Below are positions 16,183 through 30,275 of a stretch of DNA of 64,000 nucleotides, piece after piece. This stretch comes from Nitrospirota bacterium. GTDB lineage: Bacteria; Nitrospirota; UBA9217. Numbering within the stretch: position 1 is the stretch's first letter; every line of letters starts with the position of its first letter. Made by a program: the position numbers and the translations under genes. The notes under the pieces are model-generated. The model was not told the origin of the DNA, made no database searches, and worked only from the letters and a program-made list of their open reading frames with translations. Location of the stretch: positions 64,001 through 128,000 of the forward strand of contig CAWFSF010000003.1 in NCBI GenBank assembly GCA_963818475.1, in the 5' to 3' direction.

Positions 16183-16259
16183 TTCAAATGCTGAACCATA
16201 TATTGAATAGTTTTTCTAGAGTGACGAAGGAATGCTCAACTTCTTCAAATAAGCCGCTC

Positions 16260-16958
16260 TTACTTCAGGTATGAGGAAAAATAGGGAGCCATCTCTTTCA
16301 GCATTTTTTCGGCTGCCATGGGGACCATGATAGCAAAGACGTTCAGGTTCACCAGTGCGTGCACATTCGCGTCGCTTCGCGCTGCCTCGATCATCCTCTG
16401 GCTGAAATCCTTGTTCAATATTTTCACTTCCCCGTAGATCTTTGCAAGTCCCTCGATCCCCCATTCGGGCTTTTTGCCTGCCTGCTCCCGTATGAGCTGC
16501 GCCACGAGGAACATGGCGACCGTCCGGTAGGCCGTTTCATCCAGGCTGGCAAAGGGAAGATGATAGCGGGCCATCGGCTTGAGCGGTTCCATGATGGGAC
16601 AGCCGCTCGTAGCCATGATGACGCCGAGCAGCGGGCTCAACCCCTCCTTTATCGACGTGGCCTTGCTATATGTCCGCTCCTTGACCACGACGGTCACGTC
16701 AACGTTGTCCTTGGAGGTGACCCCGCGGAACTCCTGCACGATCCCGGGCAGATTCGCGGCAACAGGACAGTAGAGATGGCGGTCTATATCGAGCGGGCAG
16801 TTCGAACATTGCTTATATTCCAGCCGCGCCCAGGCCGGCAGGTCCTCTTTCCGCTCGGTCACGAACAGCAGGTTTTCCTTGTCAAGGTGGATGTCGAATT
16901 TTTTCGACGTGTAGTCTTGAAACCTGAAATCATATACGATCTTGATCAGCTCAGCCAC
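16260..16958 (-). CDS. Conserved hypothetical Cys-containing protein (DUF6901-like)
   Basis: WARL..QCSNCPL...CPVA, SGCP, PMARYHLPFA. Confidence 0.75.
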   Translation of the reverse strand: MAELIKIVYDFRFQDYTSKKFDIHLDKENLLFVTERKEDLPAWARLEYKQCSNCPLDIDRHLYCPVAANLPGIVQEFRGVTSKDNVDVTVVVKERTYSKATSIKEGLSPLLGVIMATSGCPIMEPLKPMARYHLPFASLDETAYRTVAMFLVAQLIREQAGKKPEWGIEGLAKIYGEVKILNKDFSQRMIEAARSDANVHALVNLNVFAIMVPMAAEKMLKEMAPYFSSYLK

Positions 16959-17004
16959 GACTTGCTCCTCCTCATCGGAACCCGTTCCTCATGCTGCGGT
17001 CCGC

Positions 17005-17274
17005 TCAGGCTTCCTGCACCTCGCTCATCAGGGAATCGATCTTCTCCCAGAGCGTTTTGGACGGCACATACCAGTCTGCGTGCGTGACCGTGATATCCAG
17101 GGTCGCGGTTTCCTCGCTCCATTGCCCTTGCAGCCGCACGCCGTGCTTTCGCGTGTCAATGGACCAGGGATTCTGGCCGATCACGGCGGACCCGTGTGTC
17201 TTCAGTGCATTGATGATCGCTTCCACCCTTTCCCGGTTGATATTTTCGTAAGAATGCGTTCCGTGTTTGGACAT
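17005..17274 (-). CDS. Hypothetical protein
   Basis: 89 aa, RBS AAGGAG, in operon position. Confidence 0.65.
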   Translation of the reverse strand: MSKHGTHSYENINRERVEAIINALKTHGSAVIGQNPWSIDTRKHGVRLQGQWSEETATLDITVTHADWYVPSKTLWEKIDSLMSEVQEA

Positions 17275-17292
17275 CTGCTCCTTACCTCTCGA

Positions 17293-18186
17293 TCAGGATC
17301 GCTCTGTGATAAAGGTGCTCAAACCCTGCTGGAACGGGACCGGCTCTATCCCGAAGGCGTCGCGGATGTCCTTCATGCTGCAGACCATGTCCTCCTGAAG
17401 CATGATGAGCTGGTCCGTGGTGATGGGCGGCTTCGGGAGCACGGTCTCCATGACCCGCGCCATGGAACGCATGAACAGGAGCGGCATATGCAAGGCAGGC
17501 CGCGAAACGCCAAGGGCCGCGGCAATGGCCCGGGTCACCTCTTCGTAGGTAAGCTGTTCCGGTCCGCCGAGCTCGTAGAGCTCGTTCAGATAAGCGTCGC
17601 TGGTCACGGCCTTCAGGAGGCATGCCACCTCGTCGTTGATGAAGAGAGGCTGCACCTTCGTTTTGCCTGAACCGATGATCGGCAGGACCGGAGATAGCCG
17701 GATCATTTCGGACAGCCTGATCGTGAACTGGTCGCCGGGGCCGTAGATGAGCGACGGTCTGAGAATAGTCGAGGGAATGCGGCTGTTGCGCACCAGCTCT
17801 TCGGCCTCCCATTTGGTCCGGTGGTACTGGCTCACGGCATTGGCGCGGGTGCCGAGCGCGCTCTGGAACAGGAAATGGCGCACGCCTGCTTTCCGCGCCG
17901 CCTCAACAAGATTGCGCGTACCGTCCACATGCACGCTCTGGAAGGTGGCGCCCGGAGCTTCCTGGATGATGCCGACGAGATGGACCACGCGCTCGATGCC
18001 CTGGGCCGCTTTTTCCAGGGACGCCTTGTCAGAAATGTCGCCCGGCGCCACCTCCACGCCGAGGTCGCGCAACCCTGTCGCCTTTGCCGGGTTCCTGACT
18101 ACCGCCCTGACAGCCAGTCCTTCCTGCCGCATTCGTTTGATCAGATGACTGCCGATAAAGCCCGTACCACCGGTAACGAGTATCAT
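17293..18186 (-). CDS. NAD(P)-binding atypical SDR, NDUFA9-like epimerase family
   Basis: TGGTGFIG, SALG, YHRTK, LRPSLIYG. Confidence 0.9.
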   Translation of the reverse strand: MILVTGGTGFIGSHLIKRMRQEGLAVRAVVRNPAKATGLRDLGVEVAPGDISDKASLEKAAQGIERVVHLVGIIQEAPGATFQSVHVDGTRNLVEAARKAGVRHFLFQSALGTRANAVSQYHRTKWEAEELVRNSRIPSTILRPSLIYGPGDQFTIRLSEMIRLSPVLPIIGSGKTKVQPLFINDEVACLLKAVTSDAYLNELYELGGPEQLTYEEVTRAIAAALGVSRPALHMPLLFMRSMARVMETVLPKPPITTDQLIMLQEDMVCSMKDIRDAFGIEPVPFQQGLSTFITERS

Positions 18187-18320
18187 GAAGGACCTCCCAG
18201 AAGGGTGTTTTGATGCAACACCGGTCTACTAAACCGCGAATGAACGCTAATACACGCTAATATTTTCCGCGGGTACTGTTTTGACCTTCGGCCTTCAGTC
18301 TATCCACCTTCAACCTCTGC

Positions 18321-21221
18321 CTAGAACAGCGACGGCAGCCAGAGCAGGAGGCCGACCCAACTCTCGCCCTTTTCATCCAGCCCTTTGGCAAGCACGAACC
18401 GCAGCGTTACGGGCAGATTATAGGCAACGGAAATATCCATGCGCAGCTCGGCGCCCACGGCGCGCTTCAGCTCCGATGAGCGGTACTGATCGTCCCAGGC
18501 GTTCCCTGCCTCGGCAAAGACCGCGCCGTGCAGCCTCCTCATAAAGAAGGGCGTCTGGCCGCCGCCCCGTTCGATATTTTTCAGCGGAAAGCGGTATTCA
18601 AGGCTGGCAAGCCCGGCCTTCCTGCCCCGGAACGAATTTTCCGGGTAGCCCCTGAGATACACGGACTGATCACCAACCGCCAGCGTAACATCGCCCGGCG
18701 AATCGCCGCCGAGCGCAAAGGCCCCCTGCGGGAGGGGCCGGCCGGTCGAGATGCCGCCAAAGGCGCGGACAACGAGCACCTGGTGTTTCCAGGGGAAGGT
18801 GAGATATTCGTGCCAATCGGCCGTATATTTGTCGAACTCAAAATCGCTGCCCAGCGATTTGTCGAACCGCTCATAGCCCAGCTCAATGGTCCGCCCGTTC
18901 TCGGGGCTGATCGAAAAATCATAGCGCTGCGCATTGTTGTACAGATAGACCAGCCTTCCCGAGCCCAGTTCGCCCTCCGCCGGTGTGGGAGTGTACGACG
19001 GAGGGAAGGATGCGAGCTTCGTAAGCGAAGAGACTCGTCTGCCATCGGTAGCCGAGCGTTATGATGTGCTGGGTCTGCGTCTTGATGAGCGGCGCGATAA
19101 GCGAAACGCCGTAGCTCCGCTCGCGCTCCACATAATCCCTGGTCCCGGTCGGAAGCGAAAGCAGGTCGGTGTGGGTCGTATCCGTGTCCGATGCGGAAAG
19201 ATGGATCGTGGGAGCGAAGCCGTCGTAAAGATAGTCAAGGGTATACCAGGTGCGTCCTGTCTTGGGGCCGTAGAGGCCGCTCACCACATACTGATGCCGC
19301 TCAACAGCGTCGCCGCCGAAGGTGACAAACCCGCCAAGCGTGCCGCTGTCATAGCTGTAGCCGTACCAGGGGATCCAGAAGGTCGGTGCGAGCGTCGGGA
19401 GCGGGCTGTAGGGCTTTGTCGCGGTTTCGATCTGACGCTCTTCGTACTGCACAGCAGGATAGGGGTCCTGGTAGGCTTCGGCAGGCTTCCAGGAGGCCCG
19501 GTCATTGGCAAGGGTATGGACGTCGAAGCCTTTTGCGCTGTAGGACGTGAATGCAAGCACCCGGTTGTCCGGCGAGGGAGCGGGTGCGAAGGCGCCGCCG
19601 AGGACGTTCGTGATCTGGTACAGGTTCCTGGTCTCAAGGTCAAAGGCAAAGAGGTTGTAGATCCCGGTGCGGTCCGAAGCGAAATAGAGCGTCTTCCCGT
19701 CAGGGCTCCAGGCAGGCGCGCCGTCAATGGCCCGGTCGTGCATCACCTCATCGATCTTTGCTCCCGTGCTGTCAAGGATCCAGATGTCCTTGTACCCGCC
19801 GGGCTGCCACAGGCTGACGGCGATCTTCGAACCGTCGGGGCTGAAGCGCGGGCCCTCGTACTGGAGCTCGCTCTCCGCAGTGAGGAAAACAACGTCCTTC
19901 TCCTTTGCGGGATGCTTCCGGCCGGACGTGAGATCGAGCAGCGCGAGCCTGGTCATGCCCATCCGGTTCGTCACAAAAACAAGCTTGCTCCCGTCCGGAG
20001 AAGGCTGAGGATCGCGGGCGCGAAGCTTTTTGGTGAGCCGCACCTCCCGGTTCTTTTTCAGATCGTAATAATAGAGGTCGTCATAGATAGTTCGTGCCCC
20101 GCACTTCGATCTTGGTGTAGAAGAGCCTGCTGCCGTCGGCTGACCAGGCAGGCGTCAGGCCGGTCGCGCTCGAGGGGGACACGTTCTCCGTCAGTTTGCG
20201 GTCGTTCGTGCCGTCGGCGTTCATGACATAAATGCCGGGGAACTCGTCCCCGTTCGCTTCAAGATAAGCGATGCTCGCGCCGTCCGGCGAAAAGGAAGGT
20301 GCCAGCGTATTGGTAGCCTTTGCGCGTCAGCGCTGTTGAGGGAGTCATTCCTTTGGCCTTGACCGCCTCCTGCTGCCTGACATAGGTGACCCGGAGCTCA
20401 TCCCTCCATTCCCGGTAGAGCCTGCCGTAGTTCTGGCCGAGAGCCTGTTTGGCCGTCGAGTTCACCAGGAAAGGAAACCCCCTGCCGCTGTAGGCGACGC
20501 TTAAGTCCGCAAGCTTTTCCCTGCCGTAGGTATCGGCGATAAAACGGGAAAAAGACCCGCCAAAGAGATAGGGCACGTCTCCCTGGGGCCAGGAATCGGG
20601 GAACACGGTCATCTGGCTGAGCAGCGGGAACGGGCCTTCGAGCGTTGCCATGCGGAGCACCATGTCCGCGCCGGCCGAGCGGTTCCGGCCGCCCATGGTC
20701 TGCTCGGTCTCTTCGTAGACCGCGAGACCCTCGATCAGCCAGAGCGGCTGGAGCGCGTTGGGGAAATAGAACCTGCCGAAGATCGGCTTCATCACGCCGC
20801 CCAATCCTCCGGTGACCATGTCGAGCTGCAGGATGTGCGTGTACTCGTGCGTGATGAGCATCCGCATCCAGTCCTCGTAGGGCGTGGCGCCGAAGCCCGG
20901 TTCGCCCACCGGCTGCGTCAGGAACAGCACCATGAGATTGTACGGGATGGGCGTTGACATGCCGTTCGCCTCGTCCATGGAATCGACCAGAACGACCTGG
21001 GTCTTTGCTTTCGGCTCCCACTTGATGCGCGGGACCAGCCGGGTATGCACGTCTTCGGCTATCTGCGCAGTTTTGCGCGCAAGGGCCTCGCCGCCCTGGT
21101 GATAATGGATCAGGAAGTGCGGGGTCTCGAGCGTGGTCCAGGTGAACGAGGGATCGAACTTGGCGAACGACGGAGCTGCGAGGAGCATGAGAATAAAGAT
21201 GGTGAAGATCGTCTTTTTCAA
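18321..21221 (-). CDS. Outer-membrane protein: signal peptide, HExxH (peptidase MA-like) domain, PD40/TolB propeller, Omp85-type barrel; several frameshifts
   Basis: TTG start with GGAGG; ITHEYTH...WLIEGLA; SPDG repeats; LRGY and terminal F; fragments 20259-21260, 18919-20043, 18321-18779. Confidence 0.8.
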
Positions 21222-21430
21222 CGTGGCCTCCGGAAGTGGAACATGCTGCTTTCTCGTCAAATCATAGCAGAGGCGGCATTCAAGTCAAGACATAAGTCCT
21301 GGAAGCAGGAATGGAACATCATGGGGATCAAAGCAATTGTGCTGTCATTGCACGCTGTGCCCAGGCGATTATAAAGATCATGCCGCCTATCGGACCTGTC
21401 ATATGATACTCGGCGTAGCGATCGCCCCGC

Positions 21431-21660
21431 CTACTTCCGGAAATGCAGTTCGCACCGGAGCGCAACCTCCCCGGCGAGGCGTTTCGCTTCTTCCTCGATT
21501 CGCTTGTGCTCCGTGGGGGAGTGCGTGATGCCCCGCAGGACGAGACCTTCGCCGTCGGGAAGTACATCGAAGACAGGAAGAAAGAACTTCGGATTGGTGG
21601 CGATGCCTGCCTTGACCTTTGCGGCCTTGGTACGGATATGCAGGGAGCGCACGGCTTCCC
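21431..21660 (-). pseudogene. C-terminal remnant of a cytidylate-kinase-like/BON-type protein
   Basis: KAAKVKAGIATNP...LVLRGITHS...LRCELHFRK with no N-terminus. Confidence 0.4.
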
Positions 21661-21684
21661 CGGCAACGGGCATGTTCTTGAGGA

Positions 21685-21800
21685 CTCGTGGGGCAGGGAC
21701 CGAACTGCCATGGCAATGACCCCCGCCAGAATGTGGTCGATGACGACGATGCTGGCGAGCGCGGACAAGAACGACAGGTCGAAGTTGACAGCTCCGAACG
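21685..21800 (-). pseudogene. Remnant of TerC/YjbE-family gene 5' end
   Basis: FLSALASIVVIDHILAG-VIAMAVRSLP matches the N-terminus of 25452-26174 with the DNAV segment deleted. Confidence 0.7.
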
Positions 21801-22045
21801 AACCCGGTCCATTATGCAGCTCCTCGCTGGTGCAGGGCAATCGCCCCGAAAATAAAAGCCTTGGACGGATTATCGTCCAAGGCTTTGCGTGGTGTCAAGT
21901 GATTAATATGGCAGCGGCTCTTCTCCGGGCGCGGCAGGAGCGATGGTTCAGGAAGCGGAGACGGGACCCGGTTAAGAATGTCAATAACACAGATTCAAGT
22001 CTGCCCCCCCCTGCTGTACCTAAGCTTCCAGTTCGGCACACCATT

Positions 22046-22074
22046 AAAAAAAGCCGTCCCGATGAGGACGGCTT
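22046..22074 (-). terminator. Rho-independent terminator after RCC1-repeat gene
   Basis: AAGCCGTCC-TCATC-GGGACGGCTTTTTTT on minus strand. Confidence 0.75.
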
Positions 22075-22195
22075 CATTTCATCTATTCTGTGGCGGAGGA
22101 TTACTTTTCCCTCTACCCTTGTGTCTGCTGCGTTCCGAAGCTCGCGGTCGTGAGCGATTCGGTTTTACATTAAGTTCGGATGCCGTGTCTTATAC

Positions 22196-24771
22196 TCACT
22201 GACACGTTCCGCCTATGCCCATGCTGAAACAAAGGGTATTGCCTGCCAGATCAACCGCATTTCCGGTTATGCCCTGTCCCGGCCACCCTATTAACGAAGG
22301 GCAGGTGAAAACGCCTGAGACAGCATCGTTGCATTCAAACGTAACGAGCGCAGTGACGACGTCGGACGACGGGTTGACAATGACAGTCAAAACTGGCGGC
22401 GTCTTATCTATTTTGACGGTCGGAACATGAAGCGCCTCATCGTTGCCGACATTGTCCTTCGCAAAATAGCTGACGCTGTGAATGCCTTCCGGGCTGACCG
22501 TAAATGAGGCAGTGCTGCCCGACACTATCGTCTCGGTCCCGTCGATGCTGTAATGGATTTCCTTCACCCCGGAGCCGCCGGTATTGTCGGTTGCCGTCAA
22601 GGTGATCTGCATATCGGACTTGTACCAGCCGTTATTCCCCGAAACTCCTCCGATCGCGATGCTCGTGGTCGGGGAAGTTACGTCCACCCCCGTGCCGGTG
22701 AGCGAAATAGTCAGCGTCGGCGTATCGGGATCATCGGAGGCGACCTCCAGTGTCGCGCTCTTCGCGCCCTGGGAGGCTGGCGTAAATGTTACGGTTACCG
22801 TACATGAAGTATTATAAGCTACAGACGTACAATCATTTGTCTGGCTGAAGTGAGTGGAATCTGGTCCGGTAACGCTTACAGAGCTTATCAAAAGCGCTGC
22901 TGAGCCCCCGTTCAAGATCGAAAACGTATATGTGGCCGCACTTCCCAGCTGAACTTCGCCAAAAGCAATCGCAGCTAAACTAGCGGAGATCTCCGGCGAT
23001 GCGCAAACCGGCTGCTTTATATTGGACCAATCAAAAGCATTCAATTGGCCGCAATAATTATAACCCACAGCCACGACGGTTCCACCCTCTTTAAGCCCAA
23101 TCGTGTGATACCCAACTGCTGCTATGGCTGTTATATTCGTCCACGTGGAAACATTCAACTGGCCATAGTTGTTAGACCCCGCAGCTACGACTGTTCCATC
23201 CGCTTTGAGCCCGACCGTGTGAGAAGCGCCTGCTGCAACGGCTTTTATGTTTGTCCAGGAGGAGACATTCAGCTGGCCGGACCCGTTAGATCCCGTAGCC
23301 ACGACCGTTCCATCCGCTTTGAGCCCGACCGTGAAATTAGCGCCTGCTGCAATGGCTTTTATATTCGTCCAAGAATAAACACTGCACTGGCCATTATTGC
23401 AATCTCCCACACCAACAACTGTTCCATTTTCCTTAAGCCCGATCGTGAAATCCGGGCCTGCTGCAACGGCTGTTACGGTCGTCCACGAGGAGAGATTGCA
23501 CTGGCCATAGTAATTATCTCCCACAGCCACGACTGTTCCATCCTCTTTAAGCCCGACCGTGTGACCCTGGCCTGCTGCAATGGCTTTTATATTCGTCCAG
23601 GAGGAGACATTCAACTGGCCGTAATCATTATTCCCCGTTGCCACTACTGTTCCATCCTCTTTAAGCCCGACCGTGTGATTCGCACTTGCTGCAACGGCTT
23701 TTATATTCGTCCACGAGGAGACATTCAACTGGCCATTGTTGTTAAACCCCGTAGCCACGACTGTTCCATCCTCTTTAAGCCCGACCGTGTGAGCTACGTG
23801 CCTGCTGCAACGGCTTTTATGTTCGTCCACGAGGAGACATTCGACTGGCCGTAGCTGTTAGATCCCGACAGCCACGACTGTTCCATCCTCTTTAAGGCCC
23901 GACTGTGTGATAAGTGCATGCTGCAATGGCTTTTATATTCGTCCACGAGGAGACATTCAACTGGCCAGCCGAATTATCTTCCCGACAGCCACGACTGTTC
24001 CATCCTCTTTGAGCCCGACTGTGTGATATTCGCCTGCTGCAATTGCTTTTATATTCGTCCACGAGGAGACATGCACTGGCCATTGTAATTATATCCCACA
24101 GCCATTACTGTTCCATCCTCTTTGAGCCCGACCGTGTGATCTCTGCCTGCTGCAATGGCTTTTATATTCGTCCACGAGGAGACACTCATCTGGCCATAGG
24201 TAGTTAGACCCCACAGCCACGACTGTTCCGTCCTCTTTAAGCCCGACCGTGTGAGAAGCGCCTGCTGCAACGGCTTTTATATTCGTCCAAGAGGAGACAT
24301 TCAACTGGCCATAGAATTTATCTGCCCACTAGCCACGACTGTTCCATTCTCTTTAAGCCCGATTGTGTAACCATTGCCTGCTGCAACGGCTTTTATATTC
24401 GTCCACGAGGAGACATTCAACTGGCCAGTAAGAATTATTCCCCACAGCCACGACTGTTCCATCCATTTTAAGCCCGACCGTGTGAGAAGCGCCTGCTGCA
24501 ACGGCTTTTATGTTCGTCCACGAGGAGACGATCAACTGGCCGAGTGACCAGCAGAGTTCACATTAACCCCACGATCGAGCACTGTGCCATCCGCTTTGAG
24601 CCCAACGGTGAGTTTTCTCCTGCGGCTATTGTCGTAACGTTATGATCTATGGTACGAGCAGCTTTTGCTGTTGAGGGCAGAGGATCAAAGAATAACAATA
24701 AATTACCACCGATAACAAAACATTGAATCGATCTCTCTACAGGTCCTTGAGACATACTTTCTTGCAGTCAT
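22196..24771 (-). CDS. Secreted RCC1-repeat beta-propeller surface protein with ASH/choice-of-anchor-D-like and Ig-like C-terminal domains; multiple frameshifts in repeat region
   Basis: ~14 repeats of ~114 bp (WTNIKAVAAG..HTVGLK.DGTVVA.G.N..GQ), then FGEV...N.G...L.I...CTVTVTFTP and DVTSP/DKTPP Ig modules. Confidence 0.8.
23045..24600 (-). repeat. Tandem ~114-bp coding repeats
   Basis: Recurring CTGTTCCATCCTCTTTAAGCCCGACCGTGTG and TTTTATATTCGTCCACGAGGAGACATTCAACTGGCC. Confidence 0.95.
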
Positions 24772-24838
24772 ACTTTCCCCCTTTTTTCATTATTTATTTT
24801 TAAATATGCGCCACGGATTTCCAAGGTAAAACCTCTAA

Positions 24839-24985
24839 GTAGAGCGGAGAACTGCTCGCTCTGCCCCCCTCATCAAACCATGCAAGCGGTTTTCCCGCAC
24901 AGGGACGCTCCGGGGCGGGGAACTTTCGGGACATCCTATGCTTTCGAGAATCCTGCGACATCTTGCCTTGGTTCTTACGGCGCAT
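24839..24985 (-). mobile_element. Internally deleted group II intron relic (5' end + domain V/VI)
   Basis: TGTGCGGGAAAACCGCTTGCATGGTTTGATGAGGGGGG...CTCTAC resembles domain V-VI and the AY 3' end; ATGCGCCG resembles the GUGYG 5' end. Confidence 0.65.
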
Positions 24986-25082
24986 TTGCGGATTTAACAT
25001 CTGCGATCCAGCCAGAACCTTAAAACATGCCGAGAAACAACGTGCGTGTTATGGATTTAGAATGCTAATGAAAGATTCGTTG

Positions 25083-25110
25083 ATTATAGGGATATCCAAC
25101 CTGTTGTCAA
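25083..25110 (-). promoter_or_regulatory. Consensus sigma70 promoter upstream of intron relic/RCC1 gene
   Basis: TTGACA-16 bp-TATAAT. Confidence 0.7.
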
Positions 25111-25248
25111 GAAGTTTGACGGGGTAATTTCGGAGAAACGCCCTGATTGCGGGTTTCGGACTCGCGAAAAATGGCGTGGGTTGTGGAGCCAGAGTTGAGG
25201 TCCCCCGTGCCGCAGCAAGTAGCCGGGAGATGAGCGAACTTTACTTTA

Positions 25249-25361
25249 ATCAGGAAGTGCGGGGTCTCGAGCGTGGTCCAGGTGAAGGAGGGATCGAACT
25301 TGGCAAAGGCAGGTACGGCCAGGAGCAGAAGAACAGCGCATAGTGCAAGGATTTTTTTCAA
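25249..25361 (-). pseudogene. Orphan 5' end (signal peptide + AKFDPSFTWTTLETPHFLI) of the Omp85-type gene
   Basis: 59-bp near-identity with 21109-21167; similarity stops abruptly at 25249. Confidence 0.85.
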
Positions 25362-25451
25362 CAGGCACCCTCCGCGGAACGGGTCGCGCCCGGCGTGACA
25401 GGCGTGCGGACACTGTTCCTGATTTAAGGATCAACGGGTTTCAGCGCGCGA

Positions 25452-26174
25452 TCAGGGGCGCTCGCGCTCTGTCCGTGTTAGCTTATTCAGGTCCCGCCTG
25501 AGCCAGAACTGCCCGACGCCAAGAACGCCTGCTGCAAAGAGAAGCTTGAGCGCATAGGTGGCGGTTCTGCCCGGGGCAATATGGGCGGCCACAACCGGGT
25601 CCGTCAGGATCATATCGCCGCCCACCACCCCGAGGATGGCCGCGCCGACATAAATGATCGCGGGGTATTTTTCCATAAGCGTCGAGAGCAGGGTGCTGGC
25701 GAACACGATGAGGGGAATGCTGAGGCCCAGGCCGAAGAGCAGCAGGAACAGGTTTCCCTGCGAAGCGCCGCCCACGGCAAGCATGTTGTCCACCGACATG
25801 GTAATGTCGGCGACCACGATGAACCGGACGGCGTGCCAAAGGGAGGCCGACTCGTGATGGGTCGCTGTCGCTTCCTCATCCTCGACAAAGAGCTTGACCG
25901 CGATCCAGAGGATCACGATGCCGCCGACCAGCTTCACATAGTTCACGGTCAGCAGCTCGGCGACAAAGAAGGTCAGGACCACGCGGAGCAGCACTGCTGC
26001 GCCGGCGCCGTACAGGATCCCCCTGATGCGCTGCTCCTTCGGCAGCGACCGGACCGCCATGGCAATGACCACGGCGTTGTCCCCGGCAAGGACGAGATCG
26101 ATGATAATGATGCTGAGGAGGCTTGAGAGAAAAGCCACGTCCAGGCTGGTGGTGCCAAGTTCTGCGAAATTCAT
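25452..26174 (-). CDS. TerC/YjbE family membrane protein
   Basis: DLVLAGDNAVVIA, ADITMSVDNMLAVGGA. Confidence 0.92.
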   Translation of the reverse strand: MNFAELGTTSLDVAFLSSLLSIIIIDLVLAGDNAVVIAMAVRSLPKEQRIRGILYGAGAAVLLRVVLTFFVAELLTVNYVKLVGGIVILWIAVKLFVEDEEATATHHESASLWHAVRFIVVADITMSVDNMLAVGGASQGNLFLLLFGLGLSIPLIVFASTLLSTLMEKYPAIIYVGAAILGVVGGDMILTDPVVAAHIAPGRTATYALKLLFAAGVLGVGQFWLRRDLNKLTRTERERP

Positions 26175-26559
26175 GCGACTGTCGTCCCTCCTGGTGCCGC
26201 GATCGGCACCTCGGTACCCAAGTGTGCAGCTCAAGTGTATATCAAAAAAATAGTGTGGTAAAGAACTTCTTTACCCCGCCTCGGATCAGCCGCTTGCCTG
26301 CGCATTCCGGAGCAAGCTGCCGGATGGCGCGAACTGTCAGCCCGGCATTTGAAGAAGGTTATTAATTTTTCCAATGAACATATTATCCGCTACCCGTAAA
26401 ATACCCCGGCAGGGTGATTTAATTCTTTCGTTTCTTCTACTAACATAATAATTGTTGCAGATTTTGAGCGCGAAGGAGGTGATGAAAAAGTGTCGTGCGT
26501 TCGGCAAAAACCGAACTTATTGCATTTTTATTAAACTTTTTTCCCACAAGGAGAATGTC

Positions 26560-27153
26560 ATGAAGAGAGTCGGTATTGCGGTAATGGTAATGAGCTTTTT
26601 CGCGGCAGTGTCCATGCAGCCGGTCTTTGCAGCAGACATAGATGCTCTCAAGGCACTGGTAAAGGACGAGGCACGCATTGTCAAGGATTACCCGCTCGAG
26701 AAGCAGATCGATGCCGTGGCGGCAAACCAGATGGCAAGTTCTCAGAAGGCGGTCATCGTGGACATACGGACCGCGCAGGAATACCAGCTGATCGGGCACG
26801 TTCCCGGAACCTGCAACATCCCCGTATCGTTCTGGGGCAAATGGGACGACCAGAAGAAGTCCTTTGGCATGGAGCCGAACCCGGATTTCGTAAAGCAGTT
26901 TTCGACCGCATTCCCGGACAAAAATAAGGCCTATATTCTCATGTGCCGTTCAGGACATCGCAGTGCCAAGGCGATCAAGACCTTGCAGCAGGCCGGGTAC
27001 ACCAACCTGTATGATATGTGGGACGGGTTCGAGGGCATCGCGGAGAAAGACAAGGCCTCGCCGAACTTCGGCAAAAAGACGGTTGACGGCTGGAAGAACA
27101 AGAACCTGCCGTGGACCTATGACATGGACCCCCTGCTCGTGGTTGCGAAATAA
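26560..27153 (+). CDS. Periplasmic rhodanese-domain protein
   Basis: Signal peptide, DIRTAQEY, GHVPG, CRSGHRS, DGFEG; RBS AAGGAG. Confidence 0.88.
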   Translation: MKRVGIAVMVMSFFAAVSMQPVFAADIDALKALVKDEARIVKDYPLEKQIDAVAANQMASSQKAVIVDIRTAQEYQLIGHVPGTCNIPVSFWGKWDDQKKSFGMEPNPDFVKQFSTAFPDKNKAYILMCRSGHRSAKAIKTLQQAGYTNLYDMWDGFEGIAEKDKASPNFGKKTVDGWKNKNLPWTYDMDPLLVVAK

Positions 27154-27170
27154 TCGGGATCGCACGTGCC

Positions 27171-27206
27171 AAGCCCTCGTTCCCTAGCGAACGAGGGCTT
27201 TCTTTC
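27171..27206 (+). terminator. Rho-independent terminator between convergent genes
   Basis: AAGCCCTCGTTC-CCTAGC-GAACGAGGGCTT-TCTTT. Confidence 0.75.
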
Positions 27207-27237
27207 TGGATGGATGTCCAGGGCGGATCTCCCAGGA

Positions 27238-29952
27238 TCACCCGGCGGCCGCCCCTCCTGCCGCGCCTTTGCCGCGTCTTTTGAAGAACTTCTCGATCTC
27301 CACGGCAATGAAAACAACTGATGACAGCGCGAGCGTAAAGAGCAGCTCAGCCAGCGACAGCGGCTCTGTTTTAAATATCGGGTTCAACACCGGCAGATAG
27401 ATGGTCGCCATCTGGAGGACGAACGTTAACAGAAAAGCGCCCACCAGCGGCTTGTTCGAGAAAAAGCCCTGGGTGAAGATCGATTCCCGTTCAGACCGTA
27501 TCGCAAGGACGTGCCCCATCTGGCTCAGGCACAGTACGGTAAAGACCATGGTCTGCCAGTGGGCATGCCCGGTCTTCAGGGACCAGGCCTGGGTGAACAG
27601 GGACACGGCGCCCATCAGAAGTCCGACCCAGACAATATGGACGCCGAGACCGTTGGCGAAGATGCTCTCTTTGGGATGGCGCGGCGGTCTTTCCATGATG
27701 CCTTTTTCCGCGGGCTCGGCCGCAAGGGCAAGGCCGGGAAGTCCGTCGGTTACCAGGTTGATCCAGAGGATATGAATGGGCAGCAGCGGGATGGGGAGCC
27801 CCAGAAACGGCGCGAGGAAGATCGTCCAGATCTCGCCGGAGTTGCTGGTCATGGTGTACTTGATGAACTTGCGGATATTGTCGAAGATCCGCCTGCCCTC
27901 CTTCACGGCCTTGACGATGGTGGCAAAGTTGTCGTCCAGCAGGACCATGTGGGACGCTTCTTTTGAAACGTCCGTTCCGGTAATGCCCATGGCAACGCCG
28001 ATATCGGCCCGCTTGAGCGCGGGGGCGTCATTCACGCCGTCGCCGGTCATGGCAACGAACTGGCCCTTGTCCTGAAGCGCCTTGACGATCTTCAGCTTCT
28101 GTTCAGGCGCGACCCTTGCGTACACGCGCAGATGTTCGACCCGCTCCTCGAACTCCTCCAGCGATAGCTGATCGAGCTCTCTGCCGGTGATCACCGCCCG
28201 GGAGTCCTGCTCGAGGATGCCCAGTCTTTTGGCAATGGTCGTTGCGGTCAGGGGATGGTCGCCGGTTATCATCACCGGCTTGATCCCGGCGGTCTTGCAT
28301 AAGCGCACGGCCTCCTTGGCCTCTTCCCGCGGGGGGTCCATCATGCCGACGAGGCCCAGGATGGTGAGCCCGGCTTCAACATGCTCCGGCGACATATCGT
28401 CGGGCAATGCGTCCCAGGTCCTCATGGCAATGCCGAGGACCCGGAGTCCGTCGGCGGACATCCTGTCGTTGACCTTCTGGATCTCCCCGGCGTCAACGGT
28501 CTTCAACCCTTCGTCGGTCAGGATGCCCGCTGACTTGTCCAGCAGAACATCGATTGCGCCCTTGGTAAAGGAGACGAATTTCCCATCCCTGGCCCCGGTG
28601 GAACGTGGTCATGCATTTTCTGTCGGAATCAAAGGGAATTTCGGCCACTCTCGGGAGGTCCTGCTCAAGGGCTTTTTTGTCAAAGCCCCTGTTTTTCGCT
28701 ATGACATACAAGGCGACTTCCGTCGGGTCGCCGATCACCTTGCCTGATGCGTCTCCCTCCGCGTCATTGCTCACGGCAAGGGCGGTCATGAGAAGCGATT
28801 GCGGATTGCGGCTTGCGGATTGCGAAATAGAACCCCCTCTCCTCCTGGGGAGAGGGCTGGTGAGGGGCGATTCCGATCTCCGAACTCCGCACTCAGAACT
28901 ATGCTTCCCATTCACATACACCTCTTCCACGGTCATTTTGTTCAGGGTCAGGGTGCCGGTCTTGTCGGAGCAGATGTAGGTGACGGAGCCGAGCGTTTCG
29001 ACCGCCGGAAGTTTCCGTATCAGGGCGTTCTGCCTGACCATCTTCTTCGCGCCAAGAGCGAGGGAGATGGTGATCACCGCGGGAAGGGCCTCGGGAATCG
29101 CGGCAACGGCGAGCGAGATCGCCGTAAGCAGCATGAGCAGCGGCTCCTCCCCTCTCAGGATGCCGACGCCAAAGACAATGGCGCAGATGGCAAGCACGGC
29201 AAGGGCGAGTTTCTGGCCGAAGGCCGCGAGCCTTTTCTGGAGCGGCGTCTTTACCTCCTCTTCCTCCTGCAGCATGGTTGCGATCTTTCCGAGCTCCGTC
29301 GCCATGCCCGTTGCCGTGACCACGTCCCCTGCCGCGGCCGTAGCTCACGATCGTGCCTTTATAGGCCATGTTCTTCCGGTCGCCGATGGACAGGTGCTCG
29401 TCGTGCAGCGGCTTGGCGTGCTTTTCAACGGGCAGGGATTCGCCGGTCAGGGCGGCCTCCTCGACCTTCAGCTGGGCCGTCTCGATCAACCGCATGTCAG
29501 CGGGAACGATCTTTCCCGCCTCCAGAATGACGACGTCGCCGGGAACAAGCTGCGACGCCGGGATGGTTGACGGGGTTTCCGTCCCGCATCACCAGGGCGT
29601 ACTGGGCGGCCATTTTTCTGAGCACTGCCATCGCTTTTTCCGCCCGGTATTCCTGGACAAAGCCGATGACGGCATTCAGCACCACGATCACGATGATGGC
29701 GATGGTGTCGGAGGCCTCTCCGATAATGCCCGAGATGATCGCGGCGGCAATCAGCACGAGGATCATGAAGTCCTTGAACTGGTCGAGGAACATCATGAAC
29801 AGCGTCTTTTTCTTTTTCTCCACCAGCTCGTTGGGGCCGTGCTGCTCGAGGCGCAGACCTGCTTCAGCGGGCGTGAGCCCGGAAGGCGAGCTTCCCAGCT
29901 GCTTCAGCGCTTCATCAATGCCCAGGCGATGCCATGCTGTTCGTTCTTCCAT
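27238..29952 (-). CDS. P-type IIA (Ca2+-type) cation-transporting ATPase, split by frameshifts
   Basis: [33 protein letters not shown] across ORF fragments. Confidence 0.9.
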
Positions 29953-30144
29953 CGTTGTTTGCTTCCTCTCTGCGGTGTGTGATCGGGCCGTCGGACCTTC
30001 TCTTATAGATATCACGGGATCGTTCTTTTGTAAAGGGAGGCAATTCAAGCGCATTTGAAAGTCGTAACTGATTCGCCCCTCACCTTTATCCTCTCCCCGA
30101 GCGAAGAGGGCAGGGGGAGGGGGACTTTCCTGCCTGTAAAATTT

Positions 30145-30275
30145 GAGGCATACGTAAAAAGTCAAAATCTACCACAGAGACACGGAGACACGGAGAAAGT
30201 CGATTTGAAAACGTTACTGCTTTTCTCTGTGACCTCCGTGCCCTGTGGTGAAAAAAGGTTTGTTACGATTTTATC
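30145..30275. mobile_element. Small MITE-like palindromic element with 5-bp TSD AATTT
   Basis: Imperfect TIR GA......CGTAA.AA; internal CCACAGAGACACGGAG / CTCCGTGCCCTGTGG; AATTT at 30140-30144 and 30276-30280. Confidence 0.6.

What the first reader, a model, noticed from the sequence alone, without database searches (positions are those of the whole stretch)
21109..25361. ~4.1-kb cassette bounded by a 59-bp direct repeat that swaps the signal peptide of the Omp85-type gene
Seen: 21109-21167 and 25249-25307 differ at only 2 positions and encode the mature N-terminus AKFDPSFTWTTLETPHFLI. Each copy has its own TTG start, RBS and a different signal peptide. The copy behind intact terC is truncated; the complete gene lies behind a decayed terC remnant. 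Between them is a self-contained unit: consensus promoter, intron relic, RCC1 surface-protein gene, terminator. Inference: Campbell-type integration of a circle, or duplication then decay. Recombination between the repeats would excise the surface-protein gene and re-couple the OMP to the terC/ATPase region, a possible integrase-free surface switch.
Basis: partly seen in the sequence, partly recalled or inferred. Interest (0 to 1): 0.7.

Follow-up and report, generated by a model that had tools for sequence, protein, structure and literature searches.

The report
Old gene-capture scar, not a switch
The start of an outer-membrane protein gene occurs twice because a second, divergent version of the neighbourhood, carrying an extra secreted-protein gene, was recombined in long ago; it is a tidy evolutionary scar and nothing shows it acts as an on-off switch.

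Summary
The 59-nt blocks 21109-21167 and 25249-25307 match at 57/59. Each follows its own TTG start, RBS and 20-aa signal peptide. Between them lie a 12/12 promoter, a group II intron 3' relic, an RCC1-repeat gene and terminators.

- The "terC remnant" plus the adjacent 80-aa ORF are the two ends of one long-form terC gene (about 527 aa in relatives) with about 1.1 kb deleted inside.
- Short and long terC are alternative alleles of one locus. Only this genome has both.
- The 59-nt block is simply the most conserved stretch of the gene family.
- Copy A matches same-genus G002 and copy B matches same-genus G003.
- The frame breaks in the Omp85 and RCC1 genes look like consensus errors.

Best reading (0.6): a divergent allele of the terC-peptidase locus plus the RCC1 gene was integrated without an integrase, anchored on the conserved 5' block. 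The route was a Campbell-type single crossover or homology-facilitated illegitimate recombination, probably before G000 and G003 split.

No evidence supports a switch. Deletion between the repeats would be one-way, and the reads had no power to detect it.

The parts
25452..26234 (-). Intact short-form terC (260-aa ORF). Resident gene upstream of truncated copy A.
   Evidence: Pfam TerC E 9.3e-48. 91% aa identity to G003. Aligns to its last residue with the terC of four other genera, G019, G016, G020 and the TerC part of G006.
25249..25361 (-). Copy A: orphan 5' end of the peptidase-PD40-Omp85 gene. It has a TTG start, signal peptide A and the conserved block 25249-25307. Homology ends at 25248; the ORF reads on into unrelated sequence to 25107.
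   Evidence: 86.7% identity over 128 nt to the 5' end of G002's full-length gene. A 151-nt contig of run X1 covers 25184-25334 across the junction.
25083..25110 (-). Consensus sigma-70-type promoter TTGACA-16-TATAAT reading towards the RCC1 gene. Member of a dispersed promoter family with an AAATTACCCCRTC box.
   Evidence: 12 of 12 matches. 10 sites of the box-plus-promoter pattern in the genome, this one included.
24839..24904 (-). Relic of the last ~66 nt (domains V-VI by recall) of a group II intron, between the promoter and the RCC1 start.
   Evidence: Aligns with the 3' ends of 7 intron copies elsewhere in G000 up to the shared end ...CTCTAC. The three copies tested hit Rfam RF00029 at 51.6-54.2 bits (gathering 40) at that place. 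The relic itself is below Rfam's reach.
22196..24755 (-). RCC1-repeat secreted-protein gene: signal-like N-terminus, about 14 repeats of 38 aa, Ig-like C-terminal domains. The 544-aa part 23830..22196 is open; 24755..23830 is frame-broken as assembled.
   Evidence: RCC1_2 E 7.5e-63, ASH, DUF1573 and CHB_HEX_C. In the 6 broken units analysed, 9 insertion and 2 deletion events and no stop once they are set aside. GC 0.47-0.53 against 0.60-0.62 in the flanks. Best relative G050, 64% aa, not near terC or the peptidase gene.
22050..22075 (-). Terminator of the RCC1 gene (the hairpin also reads as a terminator on the + strand).
   Evidence: 11-pair stem and T-run.
21855..21905 (-). Leader of the long-form terC: a 13-pair hairpin with T-run, overlapped by an 11/12 promoter-like site.
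   Evidence: DNA homology of 21685-21905 to the terC 5' region of G050 (74% over about 221 nt) and others.
21685..21804 (-). N-terminal piece (about 40 aa) of a long-form terC gene, lacking 4 residues (DNAV) relative to terC.
   Evidence: tblastn 44-58% to the terC N-termini of 9 relatives. Translation.
21431..21688 (-). C-terminal piece (about 85 aa, the '80-aa ORF') of the same long-form terC gene, in another frame. About 375 codons between the two pieces are missing.
   Evidence: 62% identity to residues 442-526 of G021's 527-aa TerC + Cytidylate_kin2 + tail protein. Same architecture in G010 (528 aa) and G014 (525 aa).
21261..21288 (-). Promoter B (TTGACT-16-TATGAT with TG) in front of the full gene. 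Homology to G003 begins at 21278.
   Evidence: 10 of 12 matches..
18321..21236 (-). Copy B and the full peptidase-like (HEYTH) / PD40 propeller / Omp85 barrel gene. Signal peptide B 21236-21177, conserved block 21109-21167. Frame breaks at about 20309, 20088 and 19037.
   Evidence: G002's ortholog is one 968-aa frame with PD40 E 3e-27 and Omp85 44.3 bits (cut-off 24). The three breaks are 1-nt insertions. A short-read contig lacks one base at 20086.

Best explanation
The cassette is the scar of an old, integrase-free capture of DNA.

Resident locus (inferred): ATPase, rhodanese, short terC, a 90-nt spacer, then the peptidase-PD40-Omp85 gene with signal peptide A, then the epimerase gene.

Incoming DNA (inferred): from a lineage with the other allele of this locus. 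It carried the RCC1 gene with its own promoter and terminator, then long-form terC, promoter B, signal peptide B and at least the first 113 nt of the Omp85-type gene.

Recombination step (inferred): the invariant 5' coding block served as the homology. Two routes give the same layout. One is a single crossover of a circularised fragment, which duplicates the block. The other is homologous exchange at one end with an illegitimate join at 25248/25249.

Result (shown): an orphan resident 5' end (copy A) behind terC, then the captured DNA, then the resident gene body running from a foreign promoter and signal peptide (copy B).

Later events:
- The now redundant long terC lost about 1.1 kb internally (shown).
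- G003's lineage replaced the whole 4.2 kb with about 110 nt of other sequence (inferred from the breakpoints).
- G002 kept the A-type gene and lost terC (inferred).

Consequence (inferred): the outer-membrane gene is uncoupled from terC by two terminators, and the signal-peptide change is probably neutral. RecA could still delete between the repeats (38-bp perfect core). That would restore the ancestral form once, irreversibly.
For: 1. Two alleles of one locus. In 15 relatives' loci, terC next to the gene is short in 6, long in 4 and absent in 5. The long form is one 525-528-aa gene, TerC + Cytidylate_kin2 + tail. 5 of 5 genomes tested have a single close terC. The kinase-tail part gave no match in G003, G019 and G008, only weak ones in G016, and in G000 only the last 85 residues.

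2. Copy A is the resident type. It is 86.7% identical over 128 nt to G002's 5' end, about the G000-G002 level elsewhere. In G002, 44 nt of the terC leader sit 21 nt away. G000's terC tail aligns to its end with four other genera, whereas G003's does not.

3. Copy B's promoter and signal peptide are shared with G003. Informative sites at 21301-21157 are 46 to 15. The gene body shows no excess of G000-specific changes.

4. Both flanks are collinear with G003 at 87-89% identity, with 4.2 kb extra in G000.

5. The RCC1 segment has 0.47-0.53 GC against 0.60-0.62 in the flanks. Its relatives are not at this locus. G014 has a different secreted-protein gene at the same junction.

6. No recombinase: 8 of 8 further ORFs have no Pfam hit.

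7. Junction A exists in a short-read contig.

8. Both mechanisms are documented. In E. coli, 56 of 60 integrants were single crossovers duplicating part of lacZ and 4 were HFIR (PMC3240628, passages).
Against: - No donor is known. The long-terC pieces are only 60-77% identical to any relative, so the foreign origin of the B side rests on architecture, not on a close match.
- Which side was resident is inferred, not shown. The reverse is not excluded: B resident, with the A side and ATPase imported.
- The RCC1 gene may have arrived in a separate event.
- The crossover point cannot be placed. Sites at 21156-20414 are ambiguous (55 to 50), and G003's error-rich sequence adds noise (47 indel events against G002).
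- Microhomology at the illegitimate junction cannot be tested without the donor.
- Only junction A has read support, from one 151-nt contig at depth about 2 that may come from the window's own sample.
- Only three genomes of the genus carry the locus, so the order of events rests on few taxa.
Confidence: 0.6

Rival explanations
1. Local tandem duplication of terC plus the 5' end of the gene in this lineage, followed by divergence, decay of one terC and a separate insertion of the RCC1 gene.
For: Direct repeats flank the region, and terC-like sequence occurs twice in the same order.
Against: The two terC copies are of different architecture, a short form and a long kinase-tail form. Each matches a different set of genera. 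Signal peptides differ at 26 of 60 nt, while each matches a different same-genus genome: B to G003 at 4 of 60 different, A to G002 at 15 of 60 different. A tandem duplication would put the terC upstream sequence, not an RCC1 gene, at the junction. All other genomes tested have one terC.
Confidence: 0.12
2. A working population-level switch. RecA-mediated deletion between the repeats removes the RCC1 gene, puts signal peptide A on the gene and re-couples it to terC; both forms coexist in the population.
For: The 57/59 identity includes a 38-bp perfect stretch, above the roughly 25-bp minimum for RecA recombination in E. coli (recalled). G002 carries exactly the predicted product type, an A-type signal peptide on a full gene. 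Copy A keeps an intact start, RBS and signal peptide.
Against: Deletion is irreversible, so this is loss rather than switching. No joint was seen, at about 2x depth and so without power. No alternative-allele contig exists in the assembly. The composite seems older than the G000/G003 split. G003 lost the region through other breakpoints. The near-identity of the block is explained by family-wide conservation.
Confidence: 0.07
3. Assembly artefact: two strain haplotypes of the locus were concatenated by the assembler.
For: The genome is a 7-contig MAG with 6.2% contamination and many consensus indels. The two copies correspond to alleles found separately in related genomes.
Against: A 59-nt repeat is too short to mislead a long-read overlap. 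Copy A continues into unique sequence, and that junction is present in a short-read contig. All 8 listed contigs of that run agree with the window, with 0-3 differences each. Both flanks are collinear with G003. No second contig of the locus exists.
Confidence: 0.05

Closest known systems
Campbell-type single-crossover integration of a circular DNA carrying a truncated gene fragment (as with suicide vectors; seen for re-circularised fragments in E. coli, PMC3240628, passages read)
   Same: The homologous segment ends up as direct repeats around the insert. One copy is truncated at the end of the donor's homology and the other reconstitutes the whole gene with the donor's upstream region. No integrase is needed.
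   Different: This is a natural event with no replicon or marker. The usable homology is only about 59 nt (38 perfect). The donor carried a divergent allele of the same locus. No circular form has been seen.
Homology-facilitated illegitimate recombination (de Vries and Wackernagel 2002; Prudhomme et al. 2002; Meier and Wackernagel 2003, known to me only as cited in PMC5361080 and PMC3240628)
   Same: A conserved stretch anchors foreign DNA at one end and the other end joins without homology. Foreign genes are captured without a recombinase.
   Different: HFIR usually deletes recipient DNA of similar size and shows 3-10 bp microhomology at the junction. Neither can be checked here because the donor is unknown.
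Displacement arrays of Rhs, CDI and T6SS effector loci, with 'orphan' modules (Kirchberger et al. 2017, PMC5361080, passages read)
   Same: An incoming allele recombines through the conserved part of a gene. The displaced old part stays beside it as an orphan fragment, and the structures persist and differ between relatives.
   Different: In those loci the conserved part is 5' and variable 3' ends are pushed downstream, with toxin-immunity selection. Here the promoter and signal-peptide end is displaced upstream, only once, and no toxin or immunity gene is involved.
Surface-protein variation by recombination between conserved 5' regions (Campylobacter fetus sap genes, Neisseria pilE/pilS; recalled, no call)
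   Same: A conserved 5' coding block shared by copies is the recombination substrate that decides what is expressed.
   Different: Those systems have several full silent cassettes and reversible inversion or gene conversion. Here there is a single 113-nt orphan and direct repeats, so only a one-way deletion is possible.

Membership tests
Campbell-type (single-crossover) integration product | Direct repeats of the homologous segment flank the inserted DNA | tested here: met
   57/59 block, extending to 113 nt with the signal peptide, 4140 nt apart. These are the only two copies in the genome.
Campbell-type (single-crossover) integration product | One copy is truncated and the other restores the whole gene | tested here: met
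   Copy A loses homology at 25248. Copy B continues for 2.9 kb and is collinear with the 968-aa gene of G002.
Campbell-type (single-crossover) integration product | The two copies are reciprocal hybrids of resident and incoming sequence | tested here: inconclusive
   The A upstream part resembles G002 and the B upstream part resembles G003. The crossover inside or after the block cannot be placed.
Campbell-type (single-crossover) integration product | A circular donor molecule | not testable with these tools
   No circle junction was seen. The only run has about 2x contigs.
Homology-facilitated illegitimate recombination | Microhomology of 3-10 bp at the illegitimate junction, with a coupled deletion of recipient DNA | not testable with these tools
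   The donor sequence is unknown. The junction lies at 25248/25249.
Recent tandem duplication | Both copies descend from the same local sequence and share its architecture | tested here: not met
   Short against long terC. 26 of 60 signal-peptide positions differ. RCC1 sequence, not terC-upstream sequence, sits at the junction.
Phase-variation or surface switch | Both alleles coexist within one population | tested here: inconclusive
   No joint in run X1, but depth is about 2. No alternative contig in the assembly.
Phase-variation or surface switch | A reversible mechanism: inverted repeats with an invertase, slipped-strand tracts, or silent full cassettes | tested here: not met
   The repeats are direct. 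8 of 8 further cassette ORFs have no Pfam hit. Only one 113-nt orphan is present.
Omp85 superfamily (the gene itself) | C-terminal Omp85 beta-barrel domain | tested here: met
   G002 ortholog: PF01103 44.3 bits against a cut-off of 24, residues 695-933. The window fragment alone scores 21 bits.
Omp85 superfamily (the gene itself) | N-terminal POTRA domains, as in BamA and TamA (recalled) | tested here: not met
   No POTRA hit. Instead there is a weak Peptidase_MA_2 match with an HEYTH motif, and four PD40 repeats. It is an atypical member.
Group II intron (the relic) | Match to the domain V-VI model, Rfam RF00029 | tested here: inconclusive
   The relic gives no Rfam match at E up to 1. It does align with 7 genomic copies. 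The three copies tested score 51.6-54.2 bits at the same place.

The most novel reading that the evidence does not exclude
The orphan 5' end is kept as a standby. Rare RecA deletion between the two conserved blocks throws out the RCC1 secreted-protein gene, re-attaches the outer-membrane gene to its older promoter context and signal peptide behind terC, and so gives the population a bet-hedging, integrase-free way to shed a surface protein. The conserved 5' block of this gene family would then act as a general docking site for accessory surface-protein genes (compare G014).
Probability: 0.07. Interest if true: 0.55.

Novelty: new member of a known kind. Interest (0 to 1): 0.3.

Why it matters
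This is a clean natural example, in uncultured Nitrospirota, of how a very short invariant coding block can anchor the capture of an accessory gene together with a foreign promoter and signal peptide, leaving an orphan 5' end. It shows that the terC/peptidase-Omp85 junction is a recurrent site of gene gain and loss: three architectures occur in three genomes of one genus, and another genus has a different insert there. It also shows that apparent "decay" in long-read MAGs can be consensus error. It opens no new mechanism.

Tried and rejected
- Reads. Only one public run held any of the locus (7% of the words), as about 2x 151-nt contigs. It showed no joints, so it says nothing about an excised allele or about the parts it does not cover.
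- Metagenome contig scans found nothing, either for the 50-nt core or for junction A. The genome-contig scan returned only G002 and G003.
- Rfam on 20500-27000 at E up to 1 gave no family: no riboswitch before either terC, and the intron relic was not detected.
- Global alignment of the two copies' upstream regions was uninformative beyond the 113 nt.
- Gene conversion between the copies, as an explanation for the sharp 57/59 block, was rejected as unnecessary. The block is almost invariant across the family: 0-1 differences to G003 and G002, and 85-88% to other genera against 70-74% gene-wide.
- Ancient tandem paralogs in the family were rejected. Every other genome tested has one terC and one locus.
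- G003's roughly 110-nt filler is not derived from the cassette.
- The search for a donor context of the cassette's unique parts in 64 family genomes found only intron ends, a promoter-like 50-mer and terC homologs.
- Earlier notes of this scan held nothing for this place or for the promoter sequence.
Full report
OBSERVATION

All genes of the region lie on the minus strand. The 59-nt blocks 21109-21167 and 25249-25307 differ at two positions, and none of 100 shuffles gave even one match. The repeat finder extends the pair to 85 nt at 87%, with 4140 nt spacing. The genome holds no third copy.

Aligned as genes, the homology runs from a TTG start through a 20-aa signal peptide into the mature N-terminus AKFDPSFTWTTLETPHFLI. 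Copy B is 21236..21109 and copy A is 25361..25249. The signal-peptide codons differ at 26 of 60 positions by my count.

Copy A loses homology at 25248. It lies 90 nt behind an intact TerC gene. Copy B continues into a gene whose pieces carry a weak Peptidase_MA_2 match with an HEYTH motif, PD40 repeats and an Omp85 barrel. On the intact 968-aa ortholog of G002 the Omp85 domain passes Pfam's cut-off (44.3 against 24 bits).

THE CASSETTE

Read along the minus strand it holds:
- a 12/12 TTGACA-16-TATAAT promoter (25110-25083);
- a 66-nt relic of a group II intron 3' end (24904..24839);
- the RCC1-repeat gene (24755..22196);
- a strong terminator (22075-22050);
- a second hairpin with T-run (21886-21855);
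- terC-like sequence;
- a 10/12 promoter with TG (21288-21261) in front of copy B.

The relic aligns with the ends of seven intron copies in this genome, which are identical to each other up to ...CTCTAC and diverge after it. The three copies tested are called Intron_gpII by Rfam at that place (51.6-54.2 bits). The relic alone is not detected. Eight further ORFs in the cassette have no Pfam hit, so there is no recombinase.

1. The terC remnant. In G021, G010 and G014 the gene before the Omp85-type gene is one frame of 525-528 aa; for G021 Pfam shows TerC + Cytidylate_kin2, followed by a C-terminal tail. The window's remnant (about 21804..21685) is its first roughly 40 residues. The neighbouring '80-aa ORF' (21688..21431) is its last roughly 85 residues, in a different frame. 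About 375 codons are gone. It is one gutted gene, not a remnant plus a small gene.

2. Two alleles of one locus. Among 15 relatives' loci, terC next to the gene is short in 6, long in 4 and absent in 5.
   - Short: G019, G008, G017, G016, G020, G003.
   - Long: G010, G014, G021, G006.
   - Absent: G002, G009, G011, G029, G038.
   Five of five genomes tested have one close terC only, with open frames of 540-550 aa or 256-300 aa. The kinase-tail part gave no match in G003, G019 and G008. G000 is the only genome seen with both forms.

3. The block is simply conserved. The mature N-terminus is nearly invariant in 14 orthologs of the family, while every signal peptide differs. At the DNA level the block is 85-88% identical to other genera, where the gene as a whole is 70-74%. 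It differs at 0 and 1 positions from G003 and G002. The sharp edge between the 57/59 block and the diverged signal peptide needs no gene conversion.

4. Each copy has a same-genus counterpart. Copy B's promoter-proximal region and signal peptide match G003 (4 of 60 differences). Copy A's match G002 (15 of 60, and 86.7% over 128 nt including the RBS). The record titles of G002 and G003 call them Nitrospirota MAGs.

COMPARATIVE HISTORY

G003 is collinear with the window on both sides: 16254-21278 at 86.9% and 25488-30034 at 89.0%. It has about 160 nt where the window has 4.2 kb.

G003's terC loses homology about 12 codons before the stop. The window's terC tail aligns to its end with four other genera. 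G003's filler resembles a dispersed promoter-like motif, not the cassette. So G003's compact form is derived.

In G002, 44 nt of the terC leader (window 26232-26275, 90.9%) lie 21 nt from the A-type RBS. There, terC was deleted from a short-terC/A-type arrangement.

Informative sites among the three genomes:

| Region | G000 = G003 | G000 = G002 |
|---|---|---|
| Flank 18931-16386 | 250 | 104 |
| Promoter and signal peptide B, 21301-21157 | 46 | 15 |
| 21156-20414 | 55 | 50 |
| 20413-18932 | 86 | 197 |

The last row is an excess of G003-specific changes. G000-specific changes stay uniform throughout.

The most economical reading has four steps:
1. The ancestor had short terC followed by the A-type gene.
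2. The composite arose before G000 and G003 split.
3. G003 later replaced the 4.2 kb.
4. G002 never had it.
This rests on three genomes, one of them error-rich (47 indel events against G002 in 5 kb).

MECHANISM

The layout is: resident 5' end, then foreign DNA, then a foreign promoter and signal peptide on the resident body. Two routes give exactly this:
- a single crossover between the chromosome and a circularised fragment whose homology ends 113 nt into the gene;
- a linear fragment exchanged homologously in the gene and joined illegitimately at 25248/25249.

Both are documented. In E. coli, 56 of 60 integrants were single crossovers that duplicated part of lacZ and 4 were HFIR with deletions. 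HFIR is described there as usually showing 3-10 bp microhomology (PMC3240628, passages). Displacement of gene parts with retention of orphans through a conserved anchor is proposed for T6SS, Rhs and CDI loci (PMC5361080, passages). I cannot tell the two routes apart without the donor.

Several points fit an accessory, imported segment:
- The RCC1 segment is about 10 GC points below the flanks.
- Its best relative (G050, 64% aa) is not at this locus.
- G014 has another secreted-protein gene, of 405 aa with an N-terminal lipobox, at the same junction.

QUALITY OF THE ASSEMBLY

The 'complete' gene is in four pieces because of three 1-nt insertions outside homopolymers, at about 20309, 20088 and 19037. 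A short-read contig of run X1 lacks one base at 20086.

In the six broken RCC1 units analysed (24520-23830) I found 9 insertion and 2 deletion events. With these set aside, every unit is a clean repeat with no stop. The stretch 24755-24521 was not analysed that way.

I therefore read the breaks as consensus errors. Earlier notes on other parts of this genome said the same.

A 151-nt contig of X1 covers 25184-25334 across junction A with 3 differences. The run may be the window's own sample, so it is not independent proof.

THE SWITCH IDEA

Nothing supports it:
- The repeats are direct, so recombination deletes once.
- There is no recombinase.
- No alternative contig exists.
- No joint was seen, though at no useful depth.
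- The structure seems old.

A 38-bp perfect core does allow rare RecA deletion (threshold recalled). G002 shows what the product would look like, so I keep a small probability for it.

VERDICT

The switch half is unsupported. This is an ordinary kind of event in an unusually legible state.

Noticed in passing
L029:11406-12989 (G021), L025:7422-9008 (G010), L028:8861-10438 (G014): A conserved 525-528-aa fusion of TerC with a cytidylate-kinase-like domain (PF13189) and an ~80-aa C-terminal tail that has no Pfam family. It alternates with plain short terC at the same locus across genera. I did not look for a description of this architecture.
   Followed up: partly
G000 C6:243145, 268677, 270804, 273638, 277877, 882674 and C2:837693 (L040-L046): Seven group II intron copies with identical 3' ends. 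Four of them lie within 10 kb on C6, and a 444-aa ORF lies just upstream of the RNA end in L041.
   Followed up: partly
window 25083-25133 and nine other G000 sites (e.g. C5:174087, C5:463667, C3:213118, C3:52589): A dispersed promoter family: an AAATTACCCCRTC box 7-9 nt upstream of a TTGACA-type -35 (10 sites by regex).
   Followed up: partly
window 26257-26275 and 21855-21886: Both terC forms are preceded by a hairpin with a T-run in their leader. The one before short terC is conserved in G002 even though terC is gone there, and the one before long terC is conserved in G050. This may be an attenuator. No Rfam family matches.
   Followed up: no
L034 (G003), opposite window 20413-18932: G003's gene body carries about three times more G003-specific differences than its flanks. 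This is either its own recombination import or a poor consensus there.
   Followed up: partly
L028:7085-8302 (G014): A 405-aa gene with an N-terminal lipobox, so probably a lipoprotein, sits between long terC and the Omp85-type gene, without any duplication. It is another accessory gene at this junction.
   Followed up: no
window 27238-30165: The P-type cation ATPase is split into three ORFs as assembled. This is probably the same kind of consensus error, but I did not check it base by base.
   Followed up: no
window 25107-25361: The orphan copy A remains an 84-aa ORF with an intact start, RBS and signal peptide. It could be made as a small exported peptide. No relative has it.
   Followed up: no
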